From assembly GCA_963796455.1 (NCBI GenBank), contig CAWCLO010000004.1:448001-512000 (forward strand): a stretch of 64,000 nt of DNA. The letters are read 5' to 3'. The stretch comes from Candidatus Sulfomarinibacteraceae bacterium. GTDB lineage: Bacteria > Acidobacteriota > Thermoanaerobaculia > Thermoanaerobaculales > Sulfomarinibacteraceae. A program made the translations under genes and the position numbers. Below are positions 32,997-50,960 of this stretch, piece by piece (positions within the stretch are counted from its first letter, which is position 1; each line of letters begins with the position of its first letter). A model generated the notes under the pieces. It made no database searches, had not been told where the DNA came from, and worked only from the letters and a program-made list of their open reading frames with translations.

Positions 32997-35233
32997 ATGA
33001 AGGGCCGCCACGGCGTGATTCAGTCAATTCTCGGTCTGAGCCTTTTGGCGGCCACGGTGTTGCACCCGAGAGTTGCAGCGACTGCCGAACCCCACGTTGT
33101 ACCGAAAATCGATGACCAGATTCGAATCGACGGTCTTCTCGACGACCCGGGCTGGAAGGAAGCACTGGTCCTCGAGATCGGTGTTGAGGTTCGTCCTGGA
33201 GAGAACATTCCTGCGCCGGTGCGGACCCAGGTTTCGATCTGCTTCAACGACCGTATGCTTTTTGCGGCATTTCGTGCCTTTGATCCCAACCCGGGCGCGA
33301 TCCGGGCCCGCTACTCGGACCGCGACAGATTGTGGAACGATGATTGGGTAGCTCTGGTCCTCGATACCTTCAATGACGAAAGACGTTCCTTCGAGTTCTA
33401 CGTCAACCCGCTCGGTATCCAGGCCGACTCGATCGAAACCGGCAATGAAGGTGGGGGGCCTCAGTGGGACGCGATCTGGGATTCTGCGGGGCGTATCGAC
33501 GGCGAAGGCTATGTGGTGGAAATTGCGATCCCCTTCAGTTCGCTCCGATTTCAACCCACCGGCGGCGAACAGACATGGGGATTCGATGCGGTCCGCAACT
33601 ATCCGCGCCTGGTGAGCCACGTCATCGGCCTCTTCCCACGCGATCGGAGCAACAACTGCTATCTGTGTCAGGCTGACAAAATCCGAGGGTTTTCCGGCGC
33701 CAGTCCCGGCCGCGCCCTCGAATTCGATCCGACAATTTCAGCCATCCACAGCGAAGAACGGGATCCTTTCCCCGATGGGAGCTTTCACGAGGTGGATTCC
33801 ACGATCGAACCAGGTCTGACGGCCCGCTGGGGTGTGACGCCGAACCTCAATCTGAGCGCCACCATCAACCCTGATTTCTCGCAGATCGAAACCGACGCCG
33901 CCCAGCTCGACATCAATACCCAGTTCAGCCTGTTTTATCCCGAAAAGAGGCCCTTCTTTCTCGAGGGATTCGACTACTTCCAAACCCCGTTGAATGCCAT
34001 CTACACCCGGACGCTGGCCAACCCCATATGGGGAGTCAAGGTGGCAGGGAAGATCGGACCCAGCGCCATCGGATTTTTCTCCGTTCGGGACGAGGTGACC
34101 AATCTGCTGTTTCCGGCGACGGAGGGGTCGTCCTCGACTCAATGGGACGCGCAAAGCACCGGGACCGTTTTCCGCTATCGCCACGACATCGGCGCATCTT
34201 CGACCATCGGAGCATTGATCACCGATCGAGAGGGGGATGGTTACTTCAATCGACTATATGGTGCCGACCTCGATCTTCGTTTCACCCCCAAGGACACCCT
34301 GTTATTGCAGGTGCTCGAATCGAAGACGAAATATCCGCTGCACATCGCCGAGGACCATGATCAGCCGGAGTCGGTGTTCGACGGCCGGGCGATCGACTTT
34401 CTCTATGCCCACCAGACCAGGAGTCACGAGATCTACGCCAAGTATCCGTGGGATCAGCCCGGGTTTTCGGGCAGATCTGGGATTCGTTCCGCAATACCGG
34501 GTTCAAGTTCTACGACACCGGATATCTGCATACATGGCAGCAGAACGACCCAACCCATTGGTACAACCGAATCCGAGTATGGCTGGGCTACGAACGCGAA
34601 GAGGACTGGGACGGCAACATGCTCCGCAGTGCTCCCGGGACCTTCGTCATGTACTTCGGTCCGTTCCAGTCCTTCCTGGTAGGAATCTTTTATTACGGTG
34701 AACAGACCTATCTGGGGAGGGAGTACGACGACCGGACCTACGACGTTCGGCTCACGTTTCAGCCCTCCCGCGACCTCGAGTTCGGTCTCCGCGTCGATGG
34801 CGGAGACGATATCGACTACGCCAACAATCGCCCGGGAAAAAGACTCAGGCTCGTGCCATCGCTGGATCTCTTTGCAGGTCGCCACCTTCGATTCGACTTC
34901 AGCCACATCTACGAACAGCTCGACATCGACGAAGGGCGTCTCTACACCGCGAACCTCAGCGAGCTCAGAACCATCTATCAATTCAACCGGCGGGCTTTCG
35001 TTCGTTTGATTCTCCAGTACACCGACTACGCCTTCGATGAGAATCTCTACGCCGACGGCCGGGACCCGGTCTTCCGACACCTCCTCACGCAGTGGCTCTT
35101 TACTTACAAGGTGAATCCGCGAACCGCCCTTTACCTCGGCTATACCGACAACTATCAGGCCGACAGCCGGATCGATTTGACGCAGCTCAATCGCGCGGCC
35201 TTTTTCAAGATCGGATATGCGTGGGTTCCTTAG
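32997..35233 (+). CDS. DUF5916 / CBM9-like plus outer-membrane barrel protein, with two apparent frameshifts (about 34446 and 34494)
   Basis: IDG.LDD..W, NPDFSQIETD, PEKRPFFLEG; the motif SPGFRADLGFVPQ lies in a second frame and the C-terminus FFKIGYAW in a third. Confidence 0.8.
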
Positions 35234-35353: not shown

Positions 35354-36799
35354 TCACTCTGCTGCAGCCGCGGATGCCCCGGGGATTTCCAGACGGTCCA
35401 CCGGTGCGGCGCTCTGCAACTCCCGAGCGGTGGTTCCTATGCTTTGACGGTGATATCGGCTCGGGACAACCATCAGCGAGGTCGGGAGCACATCTTCGAA
35501 ACGGCGAACGACTCGCAGCCACTGTTCGGCGCCAAGCCACCGGTGCATTTCGGTCAGCAGATTGCGCCACTCGACCGAATCGGGTTCGACGGCGTGCAAC
35601 AACGAATCGAGCAGGGAGAGGGTGTTTTCGATCGGCATATAGGAGGCAAGCACACCGATCAGATGCGGCCGCTCGAGAATGCACATTTCGTAGGCTCCCT
35701 CAAGCATTTCGAGGTGCTGCGCAAGCTCCAGTTCGGCGAGCACCGGCAGGAAATTGGCCTCCTCGTAGTCGAAGTGGGCGAATTGACCCTTGCGCAACAC
35801 GACGCATGTGGAGGCGAGAACCTTCAAGGAGTCGGCACGGGAACCCGGTGTTTCGCCGAGGGTCAGGTCGAAGAGTTCGAGGAGGGAATTCATCTCGGCC
35901 TCTTCGTGATCGTGTTGTCCGATGGCATCGGCGGTAAAACCGGGGTCGTTTCTGGCGGCGTCGAGAGCTGGAAACAGCAACAGGTTTTCGAGTTTGGCGT
36001 GGAGGGCCACCGCGCGGAACAACAAATAACAAAGATCGTGCGCTTCCTGAAGTTCGGAGTTGTCGCGATCCTCGCCCTCGGTGAGGGTCGAGGTACGGGA
36101 AACGACGTCGTCCCACATGGCGCGGAATCCGGAGTGGTGAAGACGTCCGACCTTCATCGGTTTTCCGTACTTTGCCTTTTTTGCATAGAACTGGCGCAGA
36201 AGGTGTCGTTGAGGAGCGATCTCGCGAAACGAGGGTCGGTTGACGATTCGATCCACCCAGGCATTGAAATCATCGTTTTCGAGAAAGATGGCGGGAACGT
36301 GGTCGCGAATCTCCACCATGAACGGGAGGCGGTACACGAACGGTGCGATATGGCCGTCGGCCTGGGAAAAATTATTGCCCCCGAGGTACGGCCCGCCACT
36401 CGCAGCGCGCACGAACTCGACCTTGTCGAGTGCTCGATCGAGTTTGTCGCGGAATTCCCGTTGGATGGGTGGCTTGCCGGCCAGGATGACCTTGGACATA
36501 CAGCGGAAGAGGGAATCCAGTGCATCCAATATTTCCGGATCACTTCGATAGGCTTCGCCCGCCTCACCTGCCTGGTCGATGAGATAGTCGACGATTTCTC
36601 TCGAATCCTGCAACAGCGGACTGCCGTCGGCTGGGGCGAAAACCGGCCACTCGCCGCCGGTGTTGGCTTCACGAACCGTCTCCGGGATATTCGGGTGATA
36701 CGCGACAGCGATATCCAATCCCATTTCGGTGGCCGCGATTTGTGCACGGTGGTTGAAGGGGCAAAGCGGCCCGTTGCTATAGAGAGTGCCGATGGTCAT
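35354..36799 (-). CDS. Glutathione S-transferase (Cys-type) and hemerythrin-like domain fusion
   Basis: CPFNHR, WPVF, QDSREIVDYL, GPYLGG.FSQAD; then LHHSGFR, HAKLEN..LFP, QHDHEE, HFDYEE. Confidence 0.8.
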   Translation of the reverse strand: MTIGTLYSNGPLCPFNHRAQIAATEMGLDIAVAYHPNIPETVREANTGGEWPVFAPADGSPLLQDSREIVDYLIDQAGEAGEAYRSDPEILDALDSLFRCMSKVILAGKPPIQREFRDKLDRALDKVEFVRAASGGPYLGGNNFSQADGHIAPFVYRLPFMVEIRDHVPAIFLENDDFNAWVDRIVNRPSFREIAPQRHLLRQFYAKKAKYGKPMKVGRLHHSGFRAMWDDVVSRTSTLTEGEDRDNSELQEAHDLCYLLFRAVALHAKLENLLLFPALDAARNDPGFTADAIGQHDHEEAEMNSLLELFDLTLGETPGSRADSLKVLASTCVVLRKGQFAHFDYEEANFLPVLAELELAQHLEMLEGAYEMCILERPHLIGVLASYMPIENTLSLLDSLLHAVEPDSVEWRNLLTEMHRWLGAEQWLRVVRRFEDVLPTSLMVVPSRYHRQSIGTTARELQSAAPVDRLEIPGASAAAAE

Positions 36800-36989
36800 C
36801 TGGTGCCTCCCGGCGGAACGATTTTTTGTGCGGTGTGATGAACAGGACGAGATTAGCATAATGAGTTGCAGTATCAGAATCAAAAAAACGATCCAGGCTT
36901 GCACGAATTGCTTCCGACCTTGTCGATCGCCGCATGCGGTTATGATTCGGGAGTTCAGCCGAAACGCGCGATCAGGAGAAGGAAGTGAC

Positions 36990-37814
36990 ATGCGAAGAAG
37001 GAGCACAATCACATTCGCGGGATTTCTTTCCGCCTTGCTCGCCCTGACCGCGTGTGCCGCGTCGTCGATCCCGGAGCCTCCTGCGCTCTGGATCGAACCG
37101 GTGACCGGGATGGAGTTTCTCTACGTCGTCCCCGCCCGGTTCACGATGGGCAGTGGTGAAGAGGTTCCGGGGCGTCAGATCGACGAGGTCCTCCATGATG
37201 TCAATCTGACCAGAGGTTTCTATCTCGGGCGCTTCGAGGTAACTCAAGAGGAATGGGTCGAAGTGATGGGGAACGACCCGAGTCAATTCTCCGCGTGCGG
37301 ATCTCGCTGCCCGGTCGAGACCGTGAATTTTTTCGACATCCAGCAGTTCATCCAGAGACTCGGTGAGCGCTCGGCGGGTCATCGATTTCGGCTTCCGACC
37401 GAGGCCGAATGGGAGTTCGCCTGCAGAGCAGGCACGACAACGCCATTCTCCACCGGCGAGAATTTGACGAGCGAGCAGGCGAATTTTGACGGGAAATATC
37501 CGTACGACGGCGCGCCGGCGGGTATCTTCCGAGGATCACCGGCGCCGGTCGGCAGTTATCCTCCCAATCCTTGGGGATTCCACGACATGCACGGCAACGT
37601 CTGGGAGTGGTGCCAGGATTGGTACGGGCCGTACCAGGAGGGTGAGGTCATCGATCCCCTCGGACCGGCGAATGGAGAGTTGCGGGTTATCCGAGGTGGA
37701 AGCTGGCTCTTTGACGGCAACAGTGCCCGTTCGGCGCTTCGCTACACCCATGCTCCCGAGGATGATGGATTCAGCCTGGGCTTCCGGCTGGTCAGAGAGG
37801 TCGGGGATCGCTGA
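36990..37814 (+). CDS. FGE-sulfatase (SUMF1/EgtB/PvdO) domain lipoprotein
   Basis: FTMGS, EVTQ, RLPTEAEWE, DMHGNVWEW, RGGSW, GFRL; lipobox LTAC. Confidence 0.92.
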   Translation: MRRRSTITFAGFLSALLALTACAASSIPEPPALWIEPVTGMEFLYVVPARFTMGSGEEVPGRQIDEVLHDVNLTRGFYLGRFEVTQEEWVEVMGNDPSQFSACGSRCPVETVNFFDIQQFIQRLGERSAGHRFRLPTEAEWEFACRAGTTTPFSTGENLTSEQANFDGKYPYDGAPAGIFRGSPAPVGSYPPNPWGFHDMHGNVWEWCQDWYGPYQEGEVIDPLGPANGELRVIRGGSWLFDGNSARSALRYTHAPEDDGFSLGFRLVREVGDR

Positions 37815-37826
37815 GTGCCTGGTCGA

Positions 37827-39146
37827 TCAAAAACGGATCGTGAGCCCCGACAACGCCCGCAGTTCCTCGTAGTCGTCGTGGTCGGTCCTTTCGACGACCA
37901 GGAGCAACGAGAAAGTGCGGCTGATGTTGGCGTTCATCGAGAGCGAGAACCGTTGACTCTCGGGCCGGATCTCGATCGTCCCGCCTTCGCCGTCGCGGTA
38001 CTGGAACACCGAAAGCGATGTCAGATAGTCCAGCGAAAGGTAGACCCTTGGACCGATGGTCTTGCCGAGCGAGACCCAGGTCGAGTCGTACTCCCGGTCG
38101 AGACGGTTGATTCGCGATGTGGAGGCGGAGAAATCGAGTCCGATCGCGCCGATGTTGTTGATCGACAGACCGAGATTGCTACGGTCGGCCCATTCGTCGT
38201 CGGAGTTGTTTCGGTCGCGGCCGTAGCCGACCCAGAATCGAACCCGTCGCCACGGGTTGATATTGACCCGCAAGCGGCCCGATTCAAAGAGCAGGCCCTG
38301 GAGCCGCTCCGGATCCACCGGACGGCCGTCCAGCACATCGTCGGTGATCGAACGGGCGTCGATGGAGCGGCCCCGGTGGTAGGTGCCCTGGAATTCGATC
38401 AGCCGCACCGGAGCGTAACGAATGTTGGTGAAAAAATAGCTGAGTTCGTTTTCCCCGAGACCCGCCGGGCCATCGATGTCGTACTCGAGGGCCTGATAGA
38501 AAAAGAACTTCCTTTTCACGGGGATGAAGTTGTTGAAGATCACTGTCGAGCGTTCGGTGAGTTCCTCGTTCCGGATGAGGACCCACCCGAGCACGTGGCG
38601 GCGGCCGTGCGCGGCATCGACGGCCGCGTAAACGCCGCCCTTGGTGATACCGTCCACAAAACCCAATTCGCGGATCTTTGGTTCAACGCCTGCAAAGAGC
38701 CCGAGCCGGAACTGGCCGAGGGAGGAGGCATGGCGAAAGCGGTATTCACCGGCCACGCCGGCAACGGCGCCGATACCGCCCATATCGCGTAGCCACATCT
38801 GGCCCAGACGAAGATTCCATTGATCGCCGGTGCTTCGATATCCGATCCACGCGTCGTAGACGGAAACCCGTTCATCGCGCCCCTCCTCGCCCGGGTAGGT
38901 GGCGATCCGTGTATCGAGGCCGAATTCGAAGTGTGAGGAAGGCTTCGGATCGGAGTAGAGCGAAAGGGTGGCGATCACTTCGGAAAAATCGTAACTCTCG
39001 CCCGCCACGAGGTCGCGGTCGGACCAGTTGTAAAAGAGGGCGAATCGTCCGTTGGCGGGAATCGCTTGAGCCGACACCGACTGGGCCGGTAACAACGAAA
39101 CCGATACCAGAACCAGAACAAAAAGAACCAGTCTGAACCTAGCCAT
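37827..39146 (-). CDS. Outer-membrane beta-barrel protein (putative porin of a porin-cytochrome complex)
   Basis: Signal peptide; alternating amphipathic strands rich in F/Y/W/G/R; C-terminal Phe (GLTIRF); start overlaps the cytochrome stop. Confidence 0.75.
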   Translation of the reverse strand: MARFRLVLFVLVLVSVSLLPAQSVSAQAIPANGRFALFYNWSDRDLVAGESYDFSEVIATLSLYSDPKPSSHFEFGLDTRIATYPGEEGRDERVSVYDAWIGYRSTGDQWNLRLGQMWLRDMGGIGAVAGVAGEYRFRHASSLGQFRLGLFAGVEPKIRELGFVDGITKGGVYAAVDAAHGRRHVLGWVLIRNEELTERSTVIFNNFIPVKRKFFFYQALEYDIDGPAGLGENELSYFFTNIRYAPVRLIEFQGTYHRGRSIDARSITDDVLDGRPVDPERLQGLLFESGRLRVNINPWRRVRFWVGYGRDRNNSDDEWADRSNLGLSINNIGAIGLDFSASTSRINRLDREYDSTWVSLGKTIGPRVYLSLDYLTSLSVFQYRDGEGGTIEIRPESQRFSLSMNANISRTFSLLLVVERTDHDDYEELRALSGLTIRF

Positions 39147-41503
39147 GGCTCGGCCTCATCCGGAACACCGCGTCTTCTGGTTTTCGTCCGTCGGGGTGGC
39201 AGGAATAACAGGCAGCCGAGTCGTAAACATACCCGGTCTCGCCGTCGTGGTCGTCATCGGCATCACTGCGCGGGTGGCAACCGGCCGCGAGACAGTTGAA
39301 GATCCTGAAATTTGATGGATTGCGATGGCAATCGTCGCACTCTGTGCCCGCGTGTTTGCCGCTGTTGATCGGGAAATAGGTGTGATCAAAGGTTCCCTGG
39401 TTCCAGCTCGAGTCCGTTGCGCGGTGGCAGAGCTCACAGTCGGTCGGAAAACCGGCCGCAGCGTGGTTCGGGTTGTTGCTGCCGTTGTAGTCGTTCAGAT
39501 GGCAGCCGACGCAGTCGGTGGGCGTGCCGGCATAGATCTCCGCCCGAGTGGCATGAGGTGCAGTCGAGTGTGGCGTGGATCCCGACCAGGGAAAACGGGT
39601 GATCGAAGGATCGCACCCCCCACGTAGTGGGCTGGTGACATGCGTCGCAATCGGTGGGGAAACCGGCCGTCTGGTGGTTTGGGTCGGTGGTGGCGTTGTA
39701 GTCGTCGCGATGGCAATCGACGCACTGAGAGGGGAGGCCGGCATAGACGCCGCTGGAGTGACAAGTGCTGCATGGTTGGGCGGTGTGCGAGCCGACCAGC
39801 GGCCACACCGAGTGCGGGTAGTTTGCTCGAAACCAATTCGAGTCGGACTGTCTGTGACAGGTGTCGCAGTCGGTGGGAAAACCGGCCGCCGTGTGATTTG
39901 GGTTGTTGGTGGAGTTGTAGTCGTTGAGGTGGCAACCGACGCAATCGGTGGGCGTACCGGCGTAGACACCACCCGAGTGGCAATCAGAGCAGTCGAGTGT
40001 GGCGTGGACCCCGACCAGTGAATAGGGGTGGTCGACGGTAGCGCCCGACCAGGTGGTTGGTTGATGGCAGTTTTCGCAGTCTGTCGGGAATCCGGCCGAC
40101 TGGTGGTCGGGGTCATCGGTCGCGTTGTAGTCGTTGAGGTGGCAGCCGACGCAATCGGTGGGCGTACCAGCATAGACGCCGCCGGAGTGGCAGTTGGCAC
40201 AATCCAACGTCGCGTGGACACCGGCGAGTTGATAGGGATGATTGAATTCCGCGTCATCCCACGAGTTGTCCGCCTGGTTGTGGCAGGCGTCGCAGGTCGT
40301 CGGGAAAGCCGCGGCGCCGTGATCCGGATCGTTCGTGCCGTTGTAGTCATCCTGGTGACAGGTGAAACAGTCTTGTGGCGTTCCCACGTAGATTCCGCTG
40401 CTGTGGCACGCGGCGCAGTCGAGAGTCGCGTGCCGGCCGAGCAGGCGGTACCGATGCTCGAAATCTGCCCCCTCCCACGAACCATCGGTCGGGCGGTGGC
40501 ACGCATCGCATTGAGTCGGAAAACCGGCTGCAACGTGGTCGGGCTCTCGAGCGCCTTCGTAATCCTCGCGATGGCAGGAATAGCAGTCCTGGGACACGGG
40601 ACCGTCGAAGCGTCTTCCGGTGTGGCAGCCCTCGCAGCCCACGGTCAGATGCTGGGTGCCGACCCGAACACCCGTGTTCGCCTGATGGTTCCACTTCGCC
40701 GGGATCCAACCGGTCGGCTCATGACAGTCCTGGCATGCGGAACCGAGTCGAGCCCGGTAGGGGTCGTCTTGACGGCGGATCCAGTGGCAGTCGTAACAAT
40801 TCGTCGGTGTGCCTTTGAGAACGCCATTCCAATGACAGGATGCGCAGGGGACGGCCAGGTGGCGGCCTTCGAGCGGCAGCAGGGTCGATTTGTGAAATGC
40901 CCGCGAGGCATTTTTAAAATGGGTGTCCATCGAGTGACATGTGGTGCAATCCTCACCCAGCGTGCCTTGGTGGGCGTCCAGGTGGCAGGTGGAGCAATCG
41001 GGCGTCAGCTCGAGGAACGATCGCGTGGTGTGACATTTTGAACAATCGCCTGAAAAACCGCCGTGGTACCCCTCGAGGGCGAAGCCGGTTTCGTTGGCGT
41101 GATTAAAATCTTCCCGTTCGATGGGTCTGAGATCGGTGTCACGCCCCTGGTGCTCGACGTGGCATACGGCGCAGTCATCGGCCGAGGCCTCGCGATGGAG
41201 CCCTTTCCTGGCGGCGATGCGGTCACCAATCTGATCGTGGCAGACCAGACACCGATTGCCATCGACCTCGAGATCGTCGTTGTGGCAGCTGTCGCAGCTT
41301 TCCGGGTCTTCAAGGCTCTCGTGGGCCAGGCTGAGCCGACCGGGCATGAAATCGATGTCGTCTTCCTGGGCATGCACCAGAACGGTGAAAGCTATCAGGA
41401 TCGTCGCCAGAATGACCACCCGGGGTCCGTCCGACCGCCACATTGAAGGTGCCGAGTGGCGATCGTCGTCAACGGTCGCAAATTCTTGTTCCGATCTCTT
41501 CAA
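39139..41503 (-). CDS. Exported multiheme c-type cytochrome, 29 CxxCH plus 1 CX4CH, about 787 aa (one +1 frameshift near 39538)
   Basis: 25 CxxCH in ORF 39434-41548, plus CVGCH, CELCH, CDDCH, CLAAGCH and CYSCH in the frame ending at 39139; GAGGA SD before TTG 41503 (start uncertain). Confidence 0.92.
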
Positions 41504-41709
41504 TGTCAGTCCTCGCTTGTTGTAGGAGTCGTACAATCTCAGTTTCACATATGAGCACTTGATTTAGTGCTCAGGTGAAACCGAGTCGCAAAAAACCAGA
41601 GGAAATCTCGACTCGGAGTGACCGGCATCACCCGCAAACCAGATGGGAGGCCCGTTCAACGGCGTACCGGGCTTCCGGGTATTGGGTGGATTCTCGAGAG
41701 TTTCTCAAC

Positions 41710-41836
41710 CTTGTCCGAGACAGCATTCCGGACGGCGTCAGCGATCAGGGACGGAAAAAAGCAGACAGCGTCCGCGGACAGAAGTCAGCGGCAGCGTCCA
41801 AATATCAGCGCTAGCGAACAGCACTCACATCTTCGA
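41710..41836. repeat. Dispersed non-coding repeat, copy B
   Basis: Aligns with 3542-3667. Confidence 0.8.
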
Positions 41837-41969
41837 ATTCAACAGCCGCCAATCCATGGTACGGACCTGATCGAACGCTGGCAGAAGCTTGCTGCCGGGA
41901 GGATTGTCTCGGGTTGATTCAGCAAGGGCCACTTGCCAGGGAGGGTGGCTGCTCGGGGACCGGGCCTTC

Positions 41970-42467: not shown

Positions 42468-42664
42468 CTTGATCTCCTTTGTGGGGGTGCAATTTCACGC
42501 ATTGTTGCATGAGCGGTTCCGAGTCGCGGAAATTCGTGCTGGCAACCATCCGTTTCATGGAATTCTTTGGGGCCTCGCGGGTTTCTAGAAAGGGGTTGTT
42601 CTGAGATTAGATCTTAATTTGCCATGCTCGCCATGGGGCGGGTGGGTTTTTTGGAGGAGTGGGG

Positions 42665-45374
42665 ATGATCGGAAGCAGTTTTTCGCACTATAAGGTGACA
42701 TCCAAATTGGGTGAGGGTGGGATGGGTGAGGTGTGGCGCGCCGAAGACACCAAGCTCGGCCGCGACGTCGCACTTAAAGTGCTGCCCGACGTCTTTGCCC
42801 AGGATCCGGAGCGGTTGGCGCGCTTCGAGCGCGAGGCCCGGGTATTGGCATCGCTTTCCCACCCGAACATTGCCGGAATCCACGGTCTCGAGGAGATCGA
42901 CGGGAAACGTTTCCTGGTGATGGAGATGGTGGAGGGTCCGACCCTGGCTGAGCACATTCAGCAGGGCCCGATGCCCATCGAAGAGGTGGTGCGTTTCTCC
43001 AAACAGATCGCCGACGCGGTGGAGGCGGCGCATGAAAAGGGCGTGATCCACCGGGACCTCAAACCGGCCAACGTCAATATCACCCCGGAAGGCACCGTGA
43101 AAGTCCTGGACTTTGGTCTCGCGAAGGCCCTGACCGGGGACCCGATGTCTGGCGAAGGAAGCAATCAGGATCTCTCGTTGTCACCGACCATGACCCAGGC
43201 GATGACGGGGATGGGCGTGCTGCTCGGCACTGCCGGCTATATGAGTCCGGAGCAGGCTCGAGGCAAGCCGGTCGACCGGCGGGCGGACATCTGGGCCTTC
43301 GGCTGCATTATGTACGAGATGCTCACCGGGCAACGGTTGTTCACCGGCGAGACAGCGACCGATGTGATCGGTGCGGTGGTGCACAAAGAACCGGATCTGG
43401 ACGAGCTGTCGACGAGGGTGCCGGTGCGCATTCGCCGCCTGCTTGAGCGCTGTCTGCAAAAGGACGCGAACCGCCGTCTGCAGTCGATCGGCGACGCGCG
43501 GATCGCCCTTCAGGAGTGGATCGAGAACCCCGAGGATGAACCGGTCGAGGCTGCGAGTGGCCGGCCGGCCTGGCTGCTCTGGGCTGCCGCCGCAACGGCG
43601 GGGGTGATCGGTCTCGTGCTGGGAAGTGTTTTTCTTGGGTCGAATGATCGGGAACCGCAGTTGGTCCAACGCATCGAAGCCGAGATCTCCGAAGAGGTGC
43701 TGTTCACCAATCGCGGCGCCGCCGCGGTGCCCTCACCGGATGGTCGATACCTCGCCTATGCGACGAGGATCGACGGCGGCGGCGCGCTTTATCTGCGGCC
43801 CCTGGACAGATTGGAAAGCCTGCAGGTGGCCATCGGTCAGGCTCGTGACTGGCCGCACAATGCATTCTTTTCCCCAGACAGTCAGTGGCTCGGATTCTTC
43901 ACGGTCGCCGAACTCAAGAAAGTGCCGGTAACCGGCGGTTCCCCGATCACGCTGGCTCAAACCGAGATGCCCCGTGGGGGCAGTTGGAGTTCGGACGGAC
44001 GGATCGTCTACGCTTCCAGCATCGAACGCCGGTCTCTCGATCGTGCCGGCAGCGGGCGGCGACGTCGCCTCCTTGACGACGGTGCCGGAGGGCGAGGGAC
44101 TCGAGAGTCATCGCTATCCCCAGTGGTTGCCCGGTGACACGGCGGTGCTGTTCACGGTCGTAGAAGCGACGGGAACTCGGCTCGAAATCGTCGACGCCGC
44201 CAACGGGGAACGCCGGGTGTTGCACGAGGGAGGTGCCTACGGCCGCTACGTGTCGACCGGCCACGTGCTCTTCGTCGACGGCGATGCGGTCTTTGCGATG
44301 CCTTTTGACGACAAGCGACTCGAGCGCACCGGTTCGCCGATGCCGGTGCTCGAGGGAGTCGCCTCGCTTCCGGCCGCAGGTGAAGCGCAGTATGCGGTCT
44401 CGGACACCGGGTTGCTGGTCTACCGGCCGGGATCGGACGACCTCAACCCCTTCCCGATCGCCTGGGCGGACCGCACCGGACGCGTCGAAAGTCTGTGGGA
44501 CGACGAAGGCATCTATGGCTCTCCCCGCCTCGCCCCGGACGGACGTCGGCTCGCGGTCTCGGTTCAGCGCGGGGACGACTGGGATGTCTGGGTCTACGAT
44601 ATGGAGCGTGATGTCGCGACGCGACTGACCTTCGAAAGTGGATACGATGCCGATCCGGTGTGGTCACCAGACGGCCGCTTCATCGCCTTTGCCTCGGATC
44701 GCGACGATGGTCAGATCGCTGCCTACCGTACTCGAAGCGACGGCACCGGCGAGGCGGAGCGGTTGATCGAGCCAGGCAAACTCGAATTCCCGGCTCCTTT
44801 GAGCTTTTCGCCTGATGGTGCGCGTCTCCTGGTGATCACCCCGGGGCCGAACGGTTCGGACGATCTCTGGTTCCTTTCTACCGATGGACAGGGTGAGCCC
44901 GAACCTTATCTCGCCTCACCTTTCGACGAAGGCGACGCACACTTTTCGCCCGACGGTCGTTGGATCGTCTACCGATCCAACGAGACGGGAGACTCGGAGA
45001 TCTACGTCCGTTCGACGACGGGGCCGGGCAAATGGCAGATCTCGGATGGCGGCGGATGGCAGCCTCTGTGGTCGGGTGATGGGGAGACGTTGTTCTACCG
45101 CAGTCGCGAGGGTCTGAACGCCGTCGAGGTCGAAGCCGGCGGAGACGAATTCAGGGCCGGTCGACCCCAGTTTTTGTTCGGGGAGGTTTTCGGCGGTCCT
45201 GCGGGTGTGCGGCTGCCGGGCTATCTCTTTTACGACTACGACGTCAGCGCTGACGGCGAGCGCTTTGTGGTCTTCCCACGAAGGACCGCGGAGGAAGTCG
45301 GGAATGCGGACATTCACGTTGTCAACGGTTGGTTCGAGGAACTCCGACGACTGACTGCGGGTGGCAGCAATTGA
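42665..45374 (+). CDS. Ser/Thr protein kinase - TM - PD40/TolB-like propeller, copy 1 (+1 frameshift near 44021)
   Basis: [29 protein letters not shown] helix; SPDG repeats; the frame switch restores colinearity with copies 2 and 3. Confidence 0.9.
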
Positions 45375-45422
45375 GCAGGGCGTGCGAATTTCAGCAGTCA
45401 GCGAGACAGTGAAGGAGTGGGG

Positions 45423-48161
45423 ATGATCGGAAGCAGTTTTTCGCAATACAAGGTGACGTCCAAACTTGGCGAGGGCGGCATGGGCGAGGTGTGGCGCGCC
45501 GAGGACACCAAGCTCGGTCGCGACGTCGCACTCAAAGTGCTTCCGGATGCCTTTGCCCAGGATCCTGAGCGCCTGGCGCGTTTCGAGCGCGAGGCCCGGG
45601 TACTGGCATCGCTCTCACACCCGAACATCGCTGGGATCCACGGTCTCGAAGAGATCGACGGTAAAAGATTTTTGGTGATGGAGATGGTGGAGGGTCCGAC
45701 CCTGGCTGAGCACATTCAGCAGGGCCCGATGCCGATCGAAGAGGTGGTGCGCATCTCCAAACAGATCGCCGAGGCGGTGGAGGCGGCGCATGAGAAAGGG
45801 GTCATCCACCGCGACCTCAAACCGGCCAACGTCAATATCACCCCGGAAGGCACCGTCAAAGTCCTGGACTTCGGCCTCGCAAAGGCACTGACCGGGGACC
45901 CGATGTCGGGCGAAGGCAGCGACCAGGATCTCTCGATTTCGCCGACCATGACTCAGGCGATGACCGGCATGGGAGTGCTGCTCGGGACCGCTGGCTATAT
46001 GAGTCCGGAGCAGGCCCGGGGCAAGCCGGTGGATCGTCGAGCAGACATCTGGGCCTTTGGCTGCATCATGTACGAGATGCTCACCGGACAGCGCCTGTTC
46101 ACCGGAGAGACGGCGACCGATGTGATCGGGGCGGTGGTGCACAAAGAGCCTGACCTCGACGAGCTGTCGACAAAGGTGCCGACGCGCATCCGACGCCTGC
46201 TCGATCGCTGTTTGCAGAAGGACGCGAGCCGACGACTCCAGTCGATCGGCGAGGCGCGGATCGCCCTCCAGGAGTGGCTGGAAAACCCCGAGGAAGAAGC
46301 AGTCCCTGTGTCCGAGGGCTCTCGCCGCTCGCCGTGGTTGATCGTGGCCGGTACCGCGGCCGGACTACTCCTGGGAGCGCTCCTTGGAGGTTGGTTGCTC
46401 GGCGGTAGCAGCGAGCCGGAGCCGCTGCGGCGCTTTGAAATTAACGTTTCGGAGCAGGGGCTGTTTTCACGGCTCGGAGCCGGTTTGGTTGTTTCGCCGA
46501 ACGGCCAGGCGATCGCTTACAGCCCCGGTGAGGAGGGTGGGACACAGTCCCTTGTGATCCGCCCGCTCGACCGATTCCAGGAGACGGTGCTGGCCACCGG
46601 CGAAGGTGCGAATGGACCCTATCACCCGTTTTTTTCACCTGACGGCTCGTGGCTCGGTTATGTGACACCGGGTGAGCTCAAGAAGATCTCGACCAGTGGT
46701 GGCGCACCAATCACTCTTGCGGAGGTCGATCGGAGTCGCGGCGCGAGTTGGGGACCGGACGGAACAATCGTCTACGCTCGATCGGTGTTGACGGGTCTTT
46801 CTCTCATCTCGGCAGCCGGTGGGGACCCGACACCGCTCACCGAGTTGGACGAGGGGGCCAAGGAGCAGACACACAGATGGCCCCAGTGGCTTCCCGGCGG
46901 CAAGGCGGTGCTTTTCAGCTCCCTCAACCAGGGTGGGCAGTTCGCATTCGAGGATGGTGTCATCGAGGTGGTGGACGTCGAAAGCCGGGTGCGCAAGGTG
47001 ATCCACCGGGGCGGCTACTATCCGCGCTACGTATCTACCGGACACATCCTCTACGTTCACGAAGGGACACTTTTTGCTCTGCCCTTCGACGTCAAGAGCC
47101 TCGAGGCCACCGGTTCGCAAATGCCGGTACTGGAAGGTCTCGAGACCAATGCGGGCCAGGGTTCGGCGCAATACGCTGTTTCGGAGAACGGACTTCTGGT
47201 GTACCTCGAAGGATCGGATGAGCTCAAACCATTTCCCATCGTGTGGGCGGACCGGGAAGGGCACGCCGAGACCTTGTGGCAGGAGACGGGGATCTACGGT
47301 GGGCCGCGGCTCTCGCCGGATGGCGGCCGGCTCGCAGTCTCGGTGCTGCGTGACGGCAACTGGGATGTCTGGGTCTATGACCTGGAGCGCGATGTCGCCA
47401 CCCGCATCACCTTTGGCGAGGCCTATGATGCCGATCCCGAGTGGTCGCCCGATGGACGCTGGATCGCATATGCCTCCGAGGTCGACGGCGTCGACGGCGT
47501 CTTCCGCAAACGAACCGATGGGACCGGCGAAGCGGAGGTCCTGCTCGAGCCGGGAAAATACACATTCCCCGCTCCGCACTCCTGGTCGCCCGATGGCCGC
47601 CATCTCGCGATTCAGGTTGCCGGAGAGGGTGGTCAGAACGACATCTGGATCATGCCTCTTGACGAAAATGGTGCCGGGGATCCGGAACCCTTCGTATCGA
47701 CACCGTTCACAGAGAGCGGGCCGAGGTTTTCTCCGGATGGCCGTTGGATCGCCTATACCTCCAACGAGACCGGTCGCCCGGAGATCTTTGTCGCGTCCTT
47801 CCCTCCGGGCGGTGGCAAGTGGCAGGTTTCCAGCGGTGGCGGCACCCAGGCCCTTTGGTCGGGAGACGGTCGTGAACTCTTCTTCCGCACCGATACCGGC
47901 ATCATGTCAGTCAGGATCTCGACCGAAGGTGCTTCGTTCAGGGCAAACCGACCGGATGTTGTTTTTGAAGCTGGATTCCTTGGCGGGCTGCGAGGAATTC
48001 TCTTACCGGGGTTCAATTTTCCGGATTACGACGTCTCTCCGGGCGGTGACCGTTTCGTGATGTTCCAGGGCACAACCGAAGGCGCCCAGGCGACCGAGGC
48101 AAAGGTCGTGCTTGGTTGGTTCGAAGAGCTGCGGCGTCTCACTGAAGCCGGTGCTCCGTAG
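45423..48161 (+). CDS. Ser/Thr protein kinase - TM - PD40/TolB-like propeller, copy 2
   Basis: Same Hanks kinase motifs; WSPDG/FSPDG repeats. Confidence 0.95.
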
Positions 48162-48239
48162 AAAACGTCGAGGAGCCCGAATCGTGGACACAGCAATTGA
48201 AATCTATAGCTCGAGTGAATTCGAGGGGGAACGCACGCA

Positions 48240-50960
48240 ATGATCGGAAGTAGTTTTTCGCAGTACAAGGTGACATCGAAATTGGGCGAGGGCGGAATGG
48301 GGGAGGTGTGGCGCGCCGAGGACACCAAGCTCGGCCGCGACGTCGCTCTCAAGGTTTTGCCCGATGCCTTTGCCCAGGATCCCGAGCGGCTGGCGCGCTT
48401 CGAGCGCGAGGCCCGGGTTCTGGCATCGCTCTCCCACCCGAATATCGCCGGAATCCACGGTCTCGAGGAGATCGACGGCAAACGATTCCTGGTGATGGAG
48501 ATGGTGGAAGGCCCCACTCTGGCGGAGCTCATCCAAAAGAGCCCGTTGCCGATCGACGAGGTGGTGCGCATCGCCAAACAGATCGCCGAGGCGGTCGAAG
48601 CGGCGCATGAGAAAGGGGTCATCCACCGCGACCTCAAACCGGCCAACGTCAATATCACCCCGGATGGCACCGTGAAAGTCCTGGATTTCGGTCTCGCGAA
48701 GGCCCTGACCGGTGACCCCATGTCTGGCGAAGGAAGCAATCAGGATCTCTCGTTGTCACCGACCATGACCCAGGCGATGACGGGGATGGGCGTGCTGCTC
48801 GGTACCGCTGGCTATATGAGTCCGGAGCAGGCCAGGGGCAAACCGGTGGATCGGCGAGCAGACATCTGGGCCTTTGGCTGCATCATGTACGAGATGCTCA
48901 CCGGACAGCGCCTGTTCACCGGAGAGACGGCGACCGATGTGATCGGGGCGGTGGTGCACAAAGAGCCCGACCTCGACGAGCTGTCGACGAAGGTGCCGGG
49001 CCGAATTCGACGCTTGCTCGACCGCTGTTTACAAAAAGACGCGACCCGGCGACTCCAGTCAATCGGCGAGGCGCGGATTGCCCTCCAGGAGTGGCTCGAG
49101 AATCCCGAAGCCGAAGCACCCACATCGGGGCAGGCCGCAACTTCGGGTCTGCGTCGTTGGCTGCCGTGGGCGGTCGCCGCCGGCGCCCTCCTGCTTGTTC
49201 TCGTGCAGGCGACCGGTTTGGTGGGCGGGCGAGACAGTTCTCCCGAGCCGGTCCGACGGGCGACCATCGAGGTTGGGGAGGACGGGCTGTTTTCGGGCTT
49301 CGGCACCAGCTCCGTGTTGTCCCCCGACGCAAGGATGCTGACCTTCGTCACCGGTTCCGGAAACGAGGGCGGCAATATTTTGTTGCGCCACCTCGACCGA
49401 TTCGAACCGACGACGATCGCAACCGGTGGGGCGGGGGCGGCGCCATACCAGCCGTTTTTCTCACCCGACGGCGAGTGGCTCGGATACGTCACCCCGGCCG
49501 AGCTTAAAAAGGTCTCGACCGCAGGCGGCGCGCCGATCACTCTGTGCAGCGTGAATCTCAGCCGAGGGGCGACCTGGGGGGAGAACGAGACCATCGTCTT
49601 TTCGCCGTCTCCACGAAGCCCGCTCATGAGCGTGTCCTCGGCTGGTGGCGAACCGCAGTCGCTGACCGATCTCGGCGAGACCGACATCAGCCACCGCTGG
49701 CCGCAGTGGTTGCCCGATGGGGAGACTGTTTTGTTCACATCGCTAAACGAAGGATCCGACAACTTCGAGGGGGCGAATCTCGAAGTGTTGACGGTGGCGA
49801 CCGGCGAGCGCAGGGTGGTCCATCGCGGCGGGTATCACGGTCGATACGTGGAGACAGGACATATTCTCTATGTCCACGAAGGCACTCTGTTCGCCCTGCC
49901 GTTCGATCTGAAAAAGCTCGAGGCCCGCGGTTCACAGATGCCCGTGCTCGAAGATCTCGACGCCACCGTCGTCCAGGGCGCCGCGCAATTCGACGTCTCG
50001 AAAAACGGTGTTCTCGTCTATGCCGCCGAGTCGCAGCAGGGCGACCCCTTCCCGATCGTCTGGGTCGATCGGCACGGACGCACGGAATCATTGTGGGCGG
50101 AGCCCGGGCTCTACGCAAATCCCGAGCTCTCACCCGATGGACGTAAGTTGTCGCTCTCCATGCTGCGCGGCAACAACCTGGATGTCTGGATCTACGACCT
50201 CGTGCGGAAAGTCGCAACGCGTCTGACCTTTGACGAGGGCTATGACGCCGATCAGGTCTGGTCGCCGGACAGCCGAACCATCGCCTTTTCTTCGAATCGC
50301 GGTGACGGCAACAACTCCATCTACCGCAAGGCAGCCGACGGGTCCGGAGAGGTCGAGGTGGTCGTCGAGGCAGGTGAGATGCCCGCCCTTTACCCGACGT
50401 CCTGGTCCCCCGACGGGAAGTGGCTCGCAGTCTGGACGGCCAACTCGGATGTCTATGTCGCGTCGGTTGAAAGCGGCGAGCTCGAGCCGTTTCAAAATAC
50501 GGATTTCGGTGAGTTCAACCCGAGCTTTTCCCCGGACGGCCGCTGGATCGCATATGACTCCAACGAATCCGGCCGGCTCGAAATCTATGTCCGCGGATTC
50601 CCATCCGGAGGTGGCAAGTGGCAGGTATCCGACGGAGGTGGTGCACTGGCGCGGTGGTCCATGGATGGGCGTGAGCTCTTCTACCGAACCGACACTGGCA
50701 TCATGGCGGTTTCAGTCGACGGCAGCGGTTCGAATTTCGAGGTCGGCACGCCCCGCAATCTGTTTGACGGCCCTTTCCTGGGCGGGACCAATGGCGTCGA
50801 TATCGGCGGGTTCATTTTCCCGGACTACACCGTCAGCGGCGACGGCCAGCAATTTGTCATGTTCGCCGGTCGGGAGGAGACGAGCCGCCCGACCTCGGTG
50901 CGGTTGGTGACCAACTGGTTCGACGAGCTGAAACGTCTCACGGCCGCTGGAACCAGATAA
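48240..50960 (+). CDS. Ser/Thr protein kinase - TM - PD40/TolB-like propeller, copy 3
   Basis: Same Hanks kinase motifs; WSPDG/FSPDG repeats. Confidence 0.95.
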   Translation: MIGSSFSQYKVTSKLGEGGMGEVWRAEDTKLGRDVALKVLPDAFAQDPERLARFEREARVLASLSHPNIAGIHGLEEIDGKRFLVMEMVEGPTLAELIQKSPLPIDEVVRIAKQIAEAVEAAHEKGVIHRDLKPANVNITPDGTVKVLDFGLAKALTGDPMSGEGSNQDLSLSPTMTQAMTGMGVLLGTAGYMSPEQARGKPVDRRADIWAFGCIMYEMLTGQRLFTGETATDVIGAVVHKEPDLDELSTKVPGRIRRLLDRCLQKDATRRLQSIGEARIALQEWLENPEAEAPTSGQAATSGLRRWLPWAVAAGALLLVLVQATGLVGGRDSSPEPVRRATIEVGEDGLFSGFGTSSVLSPDARMLTFVTGSGNEGGNILLRHLDRFEPTTIATGGAGAAPYQPFFSPDGEWLGYVTPAELKKVSTAGGAPITLCSVNLSRGATWGENETIVFSPSPRSPLMSVSSAGGEPQSLTDLGETDISHRWPQWLPDGETVLFTSLNEGSDNFEGANLEVLTVATGERRVVHRGGYHGRYVETGHILYVHEGTLFALPFDLKKLEARGSQMPVLEDLDATVVQGAAQFDVSKNGVLVYAAESQQGDPFPIVWVDRHGRTESLWAEPGLYANPELSPDGRKLSLSMLRGNNLDVWIYDLVRKVATRLTFDEGYDADQVWSPDSRTIAFSSNRGDGNNSIYRKAADGSGEVEVVVEAGEMPALYPTSWSPDGKWLAVWTANSDVYVASVESGELEPFQNTDFGEFNPSFSPDGRWIAYDSNESGRLEIYVRGFPSGGGKWQVSDGGGALARWSMDGRELFYRTDTGIMAVSVDGSGSNFEVGTPRNLFDGPFLGGTNGVDIGGFIFPDYTVSGDGQQFVMFAGREETSRPTSVRLVTNWFDELKRLTAAGTR

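What the first reader, a model, noticed from the sequence alone, without database searches (positions are those of the whole stretch)
37827..41503. Candidate porin-cytochrome electron-transfer conduit: about 30-heme cytochrome coupled to a beta-barrel
Seen: after one +1 frameshift near 39538, a single exported cytochrome of about 787 aa carries 29 CxxCH plus one CX4CH. Its stop overlaps by 8 nt the ATG of a 439-aa signal-peptide protein with barrel-like strands and a C-terminal Phe. Known: periplasmic multiheme cytochrome plus porin gene pairs (MtrAB, PioAB, MtoAB, Geobacter Pcc) move electrons across the outer membrane, and MtrA-type subunits are decaheme. Inference: this is a non-Mtr two-gene conduit with a much longer heme wire that could span the periplasm and enter or pass through the barrel, supporting metal, humic or electrode respiration or interspecies transfer.
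Basis: partly seen in the sequence, partly recalled or inferred. Interest (0 to 1): 0.85.

Follow-up and report, generated by a model that had tools for sequence, protein, structure and literature searches.

The report
Barrel-plugging 30-heme cytochrome wire
Two neighbouring genes of a sediment bacterium encode an outer-membrane pore and one long protein with 30 heme groups that, in a structure prediction, plugs the pore near its front end, so that most of it probably sticks out of the cell as an electron-carrying wire; it is a fused, shortened version of a predicted and still untested type of electron conduit.

Summary
Observation confirmed. Read through one extra base, the minus-strand gene gives a 787-aa exported cytochrome with 29 CxxCH + 1 CX4CH; contigs of two other studies lack that base. 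It overlaps by 8 nt a 439-aa unannotated barrel, modelled as 22 strands without a plug. Barrel relatives lie beside such cytochromes in 74 of 75 testable loci, nearly all Acidobacteriota. Many relatives add a diheme membrane protein with the PCC3 motifs, a fixed 24-heme module A and a module B of 11-113 hemes, so the system is PCC3-like. Here A is cut to 6 hemes, fused to B, and the membrane protein is missing from the genome. This short form arose repeatedly. A complex prediction (0.90, best control 0.02) puts B's first, most conserved triheme unit inside the barrel. Function, electron direction and direct homology to named PCC3 proteins are untested. The scan found this family before on other DNA. 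Verdict: new variant of a known, untested kind.

The parts
39139..41503 (-). Single-chain multiheme cytochrome c, 787 aa when read through, 30 heme motifs, 26 aa per heme; fusion of a short module A and module B
   Evidence: Pfam Cytochrome_C7 122.9 bits vs cut-off 24.8
41369..41503 (-). N-terminal extension and Sec-type signal peptide (cleavage predicted after A45, no lipobox Cys); alternative start ATG 41443
   Evidence: sequence; relatives start their mature chain at the same A-Q junction; cleavage is inferred
40919..41368 (-). Short module A: 3-heme N-cap plus one triheme unit (hemes 1-6); predicted periplasmic; 24 hemes in long relatives
   Evidence: outside the predicted interface
40694..40918 (-). 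Unit B1 (hemes 7-9): most conserved triheme unit, WxRRxDD motif, Tyr/Phe in place of the usual third axial His; predicted to plug the barrel
   Evidence: 63% identity vs 39% for ordinary B repeats; His absent in 54 of 55; interface residues 200-300
39388..40693 (-). Six tandem c7-like triheme repeats of about 70-73 aa (hemes 10-27); predicted to lie outside the outer membrane
   Evidence: units 58-77% alike in DNA; best PDB sequence match 3OV0, E 9e-12; location inferred
39537..39540 (-). One extra base (frameshift), most likely an assembly error
   Evidence: absent from contigs of two other studies
39142..39387 (-). C-cap unit (hemes 28-30, including CX4CH), conserved as far as a Bacteroidota isolate; predicted distal tip
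   Evidence: role inferred
37827..39146 (-). 439-aa outer-membrane beta-barrel, 22 strands, no plug, unannotated family; single copy in the genome

Best explanation
A two-protein porin-cytochrome conduit derived from a PCC3-like cluster. SHOWN in sequence: the genes, the module structure, the linkage in relatives, the absence of the membrane partner in this genome. PREDICTED by model: the cytochrome's B1 triheme unit fills the lumen of the 22-strand barrel. INFERRED: after Sec export and Ccm heme loading, the C-terminal repeats pass through the barrel until B1 locks in. That leaves hemes 1-6 in the periplasm, hemes 7-9/10 in the membrane, and about 20 hemes (roughly 15 nm) outside, ending in the conserved C-cap. 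Long relatives wire the barrel directly to an inner-membrane diheme protein through a fixed 24-heme module. This short form has lost both and must be fed by periplasmic carriers from the genome's other quinol-linked cytochromes. The most likely job is electron export to insoluble or large acceptors (Fe/Mn oxides, humics, partner cells) during anaerobic respiration; uptake is not excluded.
For: Linkage: 74 of 75 testable loci and 18 of 20 further, mostly remote, barrel loci. Barrel model without plug. Complex score ipSAE 0.90, best of 3 controls 0.02; the mark was reached by 116 of 157 solved and 2 of 215 mismatched pairs; runs agree in >=85% of contacts; partner pLDDT >=71. Of the three units offered, the model placed B1 in the lumen, with interface residues on 20 of 22 strands. 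Interface residues are more conserved than the rest (barrel 0.72 vs 0.64; cytochrome 0.64 vs 0.53). Direction: cytochrome residues 230-231 touch the periplasmic ends of strands 11-12; residues 243-248 touch the long odd-to-even loops (my reading of the pair list). Module A is fixed: 20-25 hemes in 50 and 5-6 in 16 of 68 loci, none between. Module B runs from 11 to 113 CxxCH, too long for a periplasm. Membrane partner or cytochrome b: 41 of 47 long-A loci, 0 of 13 short-A loci; the short/long label changes at least 6 times on the barrel tree. The window protein has 30 non-motif His for 30 hemes. The genome has Ccm genes and multiheme cytochrome b fusions with 23 and 11 hemes.
Against: No experiment exists on any member. 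The complex model used a 221-aa fragment, my own alignments and 4 hemes riding along, so the calibration holds only roughly. A cytochrome-in-barrel complex (Mtr, 6R2Q) is solved, so the pass may partly be memory of that kind of complex, although the barrel has no PDB sequence match. Orientation is read from contact lists, not coordinates. Passing a heme-loaded chain of 20-110 hemes through a barrel has no demonstrated precedent (recalled). No lipobox or other outer-surface signal is seen, and Thr/Ser/Ala/Gly content does not separate A from B (35.5% vs 36.2%). The pair is accessory: 5 of 24 genomes of the genus, 30 of 401 of the phylum. The genome has other conduits (MtrC/MtrA-like and GSU2203/2204-like clusters). 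L100 has a related barrel without this cytochrome family beside it. Kin are not independent in the counts, and the tree is the quick version.
Confidence: 0.62

Rival explanations
1. One reading: the whole 30-heme chain stays in the periplasm, spans it (about 22 nm), and only its C-terminal tip enters the barrel, as MtrA enters MtrB; B repeats have replaced the lost A repeats as the spacer.
For: 30 hemes match the about 27 needed for 200 A (PMC7096707). The chain has only a Sec-type signal. The C-cap is conserved (51%) and encoded next to the barrel. No threading is needed.
Against: B1, not a tip, is predicted in the lumen. Total length in relatives runs from 17 to 138 hemes while A stays at 24. 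Short-A forms total 17-47 motifs, not a fixed number. The C-cap stays about 47% identical in Emticicia while the barrel falls to about 20% and B1 changes with it. No membrane partner for the N-cap was found in this genome.
Confidence: 0.15
2. Same complex, but not a respiratory conduit: the barrel is a secretion and anchoring channel and the chain serves as a surface capacitor, redox buffer, or detoxifying or metal-mobilising reductase (in long relatives fed from NAD(P)H).
For: Long relatives carry an FAD/NAD(P)H-2Fe-2S or FAD/4Fe-4S oxidoreductase beside a ferric-reductase-like membrane protein. The cluster sits on a plasmid of Emticicia oligotrophica, which I recall as an aerobe. Repeat number varies freely and distribution is patchy. 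Top Foldseek rows include usher pores, at only 7-12% identity.
Against: The heme density (26 aa per heme) is that of conductive wires (PMC5566968). The short form has repeatedly lost the NAD(P)H branch but kept barrel and wire. The host lineage is rich in anaerobic respiratory cytochromes.
Confidence: 0.17
3. The copy in this genome is a real frameshifted pseudogene that has lost its C-cap and its upstream partners.
For: The frameshift is in the assembly, reads of this genome were not available, and the upstream partner genes are missing.
Against: Near-identical contigs from two other studies lack the extra base. Both halves keep all motifs. Other genes of this assembly are broken the same way (32997-35233 and 42659-45374 in the window; a decaheme on C3). 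Short-A relatives are intact (L005, L009, L010).
Confidence: 0.06

Closest known systems
PCC3 predicted porin-cytochrome cluster (He et al. 2017, PMC5566968; Hoover et al. 2023, PMC10734462; Keffer et al. 2025, PMC12442390)
   Same: Relatives of this locus have the four parts: a membrane protein with two WX3HX13H motifs and SGXXG (25 of 25), a cytochrome of about 24 hemes, a variable repeat cytochrome and a barrel. About 26 aa per heme; the Leptothrix PCC3 example has 24 hemes and a 22-strand porin.
   Different: [quoted passage not shown] The host is an acidobacterium; PCC3 was described in Proteobacteria. Homology to named PCC3 proteins could not be tested. No barrel-binding unit or topology is given in the passages I read.
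Burkholderiales 24-heme + 49-heme + porin cluster (Arbour et al. 2020, PMC7399161, section 18)
   Same: A conserved 24-heme cytochrome, a larger one varying by gain or loss of CxxCH domains, then a porin of 20-24 strands.
MtrCAB / MtoAB / PioAB
   Same: A cytochrome inside an outer-membrane barrel carrying electrons across it; MtrB is a fold match at Z 14.8, below 22-strand receptors at Z 18.
   Different: No decaheme (TIGR03508 24.9 bits vs 192.2 cut-off). The barrel is unrelated to the genome's own MtrB-position barrel (probability 1%) and has 22 strands against 26 (recalled). Periplasmic, membrane and outer segments are predicted in one chain.
Geobacter c7-polymer cytochrome GSU1996 (PDB 3OV0; gene name recalled)
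   Same: Chain of c7-like triheme units; best solved-structure sequence match, E 9e-12, unit by unit.
   Different: 12 hemes and no barrel partner known to me; the third distal ligand is a His just before the last heme here, a Met earlier in the unit there (alignment; ligand roles recalled).
Acidobacteriota EET clusters of Flieder et al. 2021 (PMC8528874) and Fiorito et al. 2026 (10.64898/2026.05.27.727921)
   Same: Same phylum, for Flieder the same family; multiheme cytochromes beside barrels.
   Different: Flieder's listed cluster has NHL-repeat and PPIase genes, absent here. Fiorito's modelled cytochromes have 8-13 hemes. Their supplements were closed, so overlap with this family is not excluded.

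Membership tests
PCC3 | Outer-membrane beta-barrel porin in the cluster | tested here: met
   22-strand plugless barrel, pLDDT 90.6
PCC3 | Periplasmic cytochrome of 21-27 hemes | tested here: not met
   Module A has 6 hemes in the window; met in relatives (20-25 hemes in 50 of 68 loci)
PCC3 | Separate extracellular repeat-rich cytochrome of variable heme number | tested here: inconclusive
   Module B is repeat-built and variable but fused here; location is only predicted; T/S/A/G content does not separate A from B
PCC3 | Inner-membrane protein of about 300 aa with two WX3HX13H motifs and SGXXG | tested here: not met
   No hit of the family profile in the six frames of this genome, 90.5% complete; met in relatives, 25 of 25
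PCC3 | Low residue-to-heme ratio (about 26) | tested here: met
   787/30 = 26 (PCC3 examples 26-30)
PCC3 | Sequence homology to the named PCC3 porin, cytochromes and membrane protein | not testable with these tools
   No named PCC3 sequence could be fetched; the supplements read hold none
MtrAB/MtoAB/PioAB | Decaheme DmsE/MtrA-family cytochrome | tested here: not met
   TIGR03508 24.9 bits vs 192.2
MtrAB/MtoAB/PioAB | MtrB/PioB-family porin | tested here: not met
   No Pfam or NCBIfam family at E<=0.1; no PDB sequence match at E<=10; hhalign probability 1% to the genome's MtrB-position barrel
Geobacter Pcc (OmbB/ExtB porins) | Homology of the barrel to OmbB/ExtB | not tested
   No OmbB sequence or model in hand; Arbour 2020 found a similar cluster with an OmbB model, so a distant link is possible
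TonB-dependent receptor | N-terminal plug domain inside a 22-strand barrel | tested here: not met
   The first strand starts at residue 31; matches cover only the barrel part of the receptors
Cytochrome c7 polymers | Tandem triheme c7-like units | tested here: met
   PF14522 122.9 bits vs 24.8, 9 stretches; TIGR04257 40.8 vs 40; 3OV0 E 9e-12

The most novel reading that the evidence does not exclude
A self-threading, single-chain nanowire. The barrel works like an usher for its own cytochrome: heme-loaded triheme repeats slide out C-terminus first until unit B1 locks as plug, so one polypeptide carries electrons from the periplasm (in long forms from the inner membrane) to a tip whose reach is set by repeat number, from about 9 to over 110 hemes outside (up to about 80 nm in the 138-motif relative). 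B1's missing His would leave one heme in the membrane with an open or unusual ligand site that could gate the wire.
Probability: 0.4. Interest if true: 0.88.

Novelty: new variant of a known kind. Interest (0 to 1): 0.62.

Why it matters
PCC3-type conduits have been predicted since 2017 and are called functionally unverified in a 2025 paper (PMC12442390). That their giant cytochromes might pass out through the porin was only a suggestion (PMC7096707). This locus gives a minimal two-protein version, names the unit that should sit in the pore, and predicts which hemes are inside and outside, which makes the suggestion testable. It implies a nanowire made by gene-internal repeats rather than by polymerising subunits, with tunable length. 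Current Pfam and NCBIfam models miss the barrel, so such conduits are probably uncounted in sediment and soil Acidobacteriota. A cultured carrier with a plasmid-borne cluster exists (Emticicia oligotrophica DSM 17448).

Tried and rejected
Fold searches with the cytochrome-fragment model (pLDDT 76, pTM 0.45, no hemes) gave no match in Foldseek or VIA-align; this says nothing about a new fold. No RNA holder was listed for the stretch, which is no evidence on expression. Runs with shares under 0.2 were not used for habitat. A scan of viral contigs with the Emticicia barrel found nothing. The idea that split forms share an axial His between the two chains was dropped: His counts balance within each chain. 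Identity with Flieder's Sulfomarinibacter cluster was rejected on gene content. A fusion of barrel and cytochrome was looked for among 11 long barrel homologs; the extensions are AMIN, SPOR or carboxypeptidase-regulatory domains or unassigned, not hemes. Weak matches to SLT_beta and OCC1 and EAST1 are far below cut-off and are Cys/His-pattern noise. Attempts to reach named PCC3 sequences failed: plasmid searches gave only Emticicia and porin-less 7-heme clusters; cluster look-ups and homolog lists gave no proteobacterial names. The metagenome scan with the membrane-protein alignment did not run. The careful tree did not finish; the quick tree was used.
Full report
1. Observation. The finding is in the sequence as described. 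On the minus strand two frames carry 25 and 4 CxxCH motifs, and one extra base at codon 655 joins them into 787 aa with 29 CxxCH and one CX4CH; shuffles give at most 3 motifs. The stop overlaps the next ATG by 8 nt. Two of four public runs laid on the region, from different studies, each have a contig across the site that lacks one base, and other genes of this assembly are broken the same way. The frameshift is therefore most likely an assembly error; reads of this genome itself were not seen. On the barrel tree the window groups with two Ca. Sulfomarinibacteraceae loci (Acidobacteriota), and the four best holders include three sediment metagenomes.

2. The barrel. The 439-aa protein has no Pfam, NCBIfam or PDB sequence match, and the 30 nearest Atlas clusters have no common Pfam family. 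It has 340 homologs among 8000 candidates scored. With 92 of them aligned, AlphaFold2 gives pLDDT 90.6 and 22 long strands starting at residue 31, without a plug. The best fold matches are the barrel parts of TonB-dependent receptors (Z about 18); MtrB scores 14.8. It is unrelated to the genome's own MtrB-position barrel and is single-copy. Five of 21 homologs scanned carry N-terminal AMIN or SPOR domains, which bind peptidoglycan (recalled) and fit a periplasmic N-terminus.

3. Linkage. Of 104 relatives found in genome contigs, 80 were returned, nearly all Acidobacteriota. Five have too little upstream DNA. Of the other 75, 73 have a multiheme gene directly upstream and one (L068) directly downstream. 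The last (L055) runs into a contig end, and its relative L117 has the cytochrome further downstream. A profile search found the barrel in 30 of 401 genomes of the phylum. I fetched 20 of those places, mostly the remote ones: 18 have the same cytochrome family beside the barrel, one is cut by a contig end, and one (L100) has an unrelated 19-heme gene. A plasmid of the Bacteroidota isolate Emticicia oligotrophica carries the whole set, with a remote barrel homolog (probability 82%, E 1e-5). Within the window's genus only 5 of 24 genomes searched have it.

4. Anatomy of the cytochrome. Heme spacings split the family into two modules. Module A is a 3-heme N-cap plus triheme units. Module B is a special first unit (B1), n repeats and a C-cap. 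Eleven loci encode B as its own gene; where I read the N-termini, each gene has its own signal peptide, and three have the order A-barrel-B. A is fixed in length: of 68 loci with an N-cap, 50 have 20-25 hemes (38 exactly 24), 16 have 5-6, 2 are uninterpretable, and none lies between. B runs from 11 to 113 CxxCH. One relative has a 3434-aa open frame with 137 CxxCH + 1 CX4CH, more than the 85 and 116 given as maxima in two papers I read; its first repeats are nearly identical, so assembly error is possible. The window's chain is A(6)+B(24). The units are c7-like, and the window protein has 30 non-motif His for 30 hemes. B1 is the most conserved unit (63% against 39% for ordinary B repeats, 51% C-cap, 48% N-cap; 23 proteins). 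It lacks the usual third His in 54 of 55 sequences.

5. Partners. Upstream of many relatives lie an FAD/NAD(P)H-2Fe-2S oxidoreductase and a membrane protein of about 300 aa. All 25 membrane proteins examined have two WX3HX13H motifs and SGXXG, the signature He et al. give for PCC3/PCC4. Others have a cytochrome b instead, and eight loci lie next to ccm genes. Among loci with at least 2.5 kb upstream, 41 of 47 long-A loci have such a partner and 0 of 13 short-A loci do (one of the 13, L045, is an ambiguous call). On a quick tree of 58 barrels the short/long label needs 9 changes, at least 6 of them forced by well-supported branches, so pruning of A with loss of the partner recurred. No membrane-protein homolog was found in this genome (90.5% complete). 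It has Ccm genes, MtrC/MtrA-like and GSU2203/2204-like clusters, HmcA, and 23- and 11-heme cytochrome b fusions that could feed the periplasm.

6. Complex prediction. I folded the barrel with cytochrome residues 130-350 (last A unit, B1, first repeat) and four hemes. Score 0.90, best of three controls 0.02. The mark was reached by 116 of 157 solved and 2 of 215 mismatched pairs, counts that hold only roughly for this job; runs agree in at least 85% of contacts; partner pLDDT at least 71. The interface covers residues 200-300, that is B1 and the start of the next unit, and touches 20 of 22 strands. Interface residues are more conserved than the rest on both sides. Residues 230-231 touch the ends of strands 11-12 on the short-turn side; the RRQDDP motif touches the long loops. 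I read this as N-terminus periplasmic, C-terminal repeats outside.

7. How it most likely works. The chain is exported, loaded with hemes and held by B1 in the barrel. At about 7.4 A per heme (from PMC7096707), 24 hemes span roughly 18 nm, which explains the fixed A of long forms as the bridge from the inner-membrane protein. Six hemes span 4-5 nm, so the window's form cannot bridge the periplasm and needs soluble donors. About 20 hemes, some 15 nm, would lie outside. Export to insoluble acceptors is the likeliest use (0.62). Rivals: a purely periplasmic wire with its tip in the barrel (0.15), a non-respiratory surface capacitor or reductase (0.17), a pseudogene (0.06).

8. Comparison with what is known. 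It works like a porin-cytochrome conduit. It is not MtrAB and not a TonB receptor. Its relatives have the PCC3 architecture, and Arbour et al. describe a 24-heme + 49-heme + 20-24-strand cluster with the same fixed/variable pattern. The window's locus itself fails two PCC3 features (long periplasmic cytochrome, membrane protein), and homology to named PCC3 proteins could not be tested, so I call it PCC3-like, not a member. Passage of a giant cytochrome through its porin was suggested for the 86-heme case. I found no paper describing this barrel family, the fused or short forms, or the B1 plug in searches (no paper holds both 'PCC3' and 'Acidobacteri') and 129; most subscription journals are not searched. 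What I saw of papers: He 2017, passages, text of Supp. Fig. 1, legend of Supp. Table 4, Supp. Table 6; Hoover 2023, passages and supplement headers; Fiorito 2026, parts 1-5 of 8, supplements closed (they may include this family); Flieder 2021, passages and rows of Supp. Table 5; Arbour 2020, passages and section 18; He 2019, Keffer 2025 and Edwards 2020, passages. He 2019 reports unnamed novel clusters in Bacteroidetes and a 51-heme member that may belong here. Earlier notes of this scan describe the same family on other DNA; I read them after reaching the PCC3-like reading and did not use them as support.

9. Verdict. A real feature, a new variant of a predicted and untested kind. The additions are the minimal fused form, its repeated origin, and a testable topology. 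Interest 0.62; 0.88 if the self-threading wire (probability 0.4) is true.

Noticed in passing
L081:1995-12299 (G001:C24): Open frame of 3434 aa with 137 CxxCH + 1 CX4CH (A24 + B114), upstream of the barrel, with oxidoreductase and membrane protein; repeats come largely in alternating pairs; not checked against reads.
   Followed up: partly
window 41710-41878: Dispersed repeat of about 170 nt with roughly 120 blastn hits across 9 of 10 contigs (68-86% identity); REP- or MITE-like, unrelated to the operon.
   Followed up: no
window 41533-41592: Long hairpin just upstream of the cytochrome start (z -3.5), with a weak match upstream of the L013 ortholog (E 0.005); terminator or regulatory site.
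   Followed up: partly
window 42659-50960: Three tandem paralogs of a Ser/Thr kinase fused to a beta-propeller-like domain (labels recalled from motifs); the first is frameshifted near 44000-44137.
   Followed up: no
window 35354-37012: Glutathione S-transferase fused to a hemerythrin domain.
   Followed up: no
window 32997-35233: CBM9/DUF5916 protein split by a frameshift, another probable assembly indel.
   Followed up: no
window 36786-37814: Convergent FGE-sulfatase-domain gene ending 13 nt from the barrel's stop; closes the operon.
   Followed up: no
P0127, P0133, P0134, P0138, P0140: Barrel homologs with N-terminal SPOR or one to three AMIN domains, possibly tying the pore to peptidoglycan.
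   Followed up: partly
L028, L030, L032, L034, L036, L040, L046, L079: The cytochrome-barrel pair lies within or next to a ccm cytochrome c maturation operon.
   Followed up: partly
L033:3373-10155: 57-heme chain of B-type repeats without N-cap or B1 directly before a barrel, with a cytochrome b gene behind it; a test case for the B1 model if no B1-bearing gene lies further upstream.
   Followed up: no
L098 and plasmid hits H22-H45: Porin-less clusters of 2Fe-2S reductase, membrane protein and 7-heme cytochrome on proteobacterial plasmids share the N-cap and the membrane protein with this system; they resemble He 2017 Supp. Table 6.
   Followed up: partly
L119, L121, L124, L125, L126 (own genome): Other electron-transfer clusters: GSU2203/2204-like decaheme pair, MtrC + split decaheme + barrel, 23-heme and 11-heme cytochrome b fusions, HmcA.
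   Followed up: partly
L109:5650-11425: Module A on one strand, module B and barrel on the other: an inversion or a misassembly.
   Followed up: no
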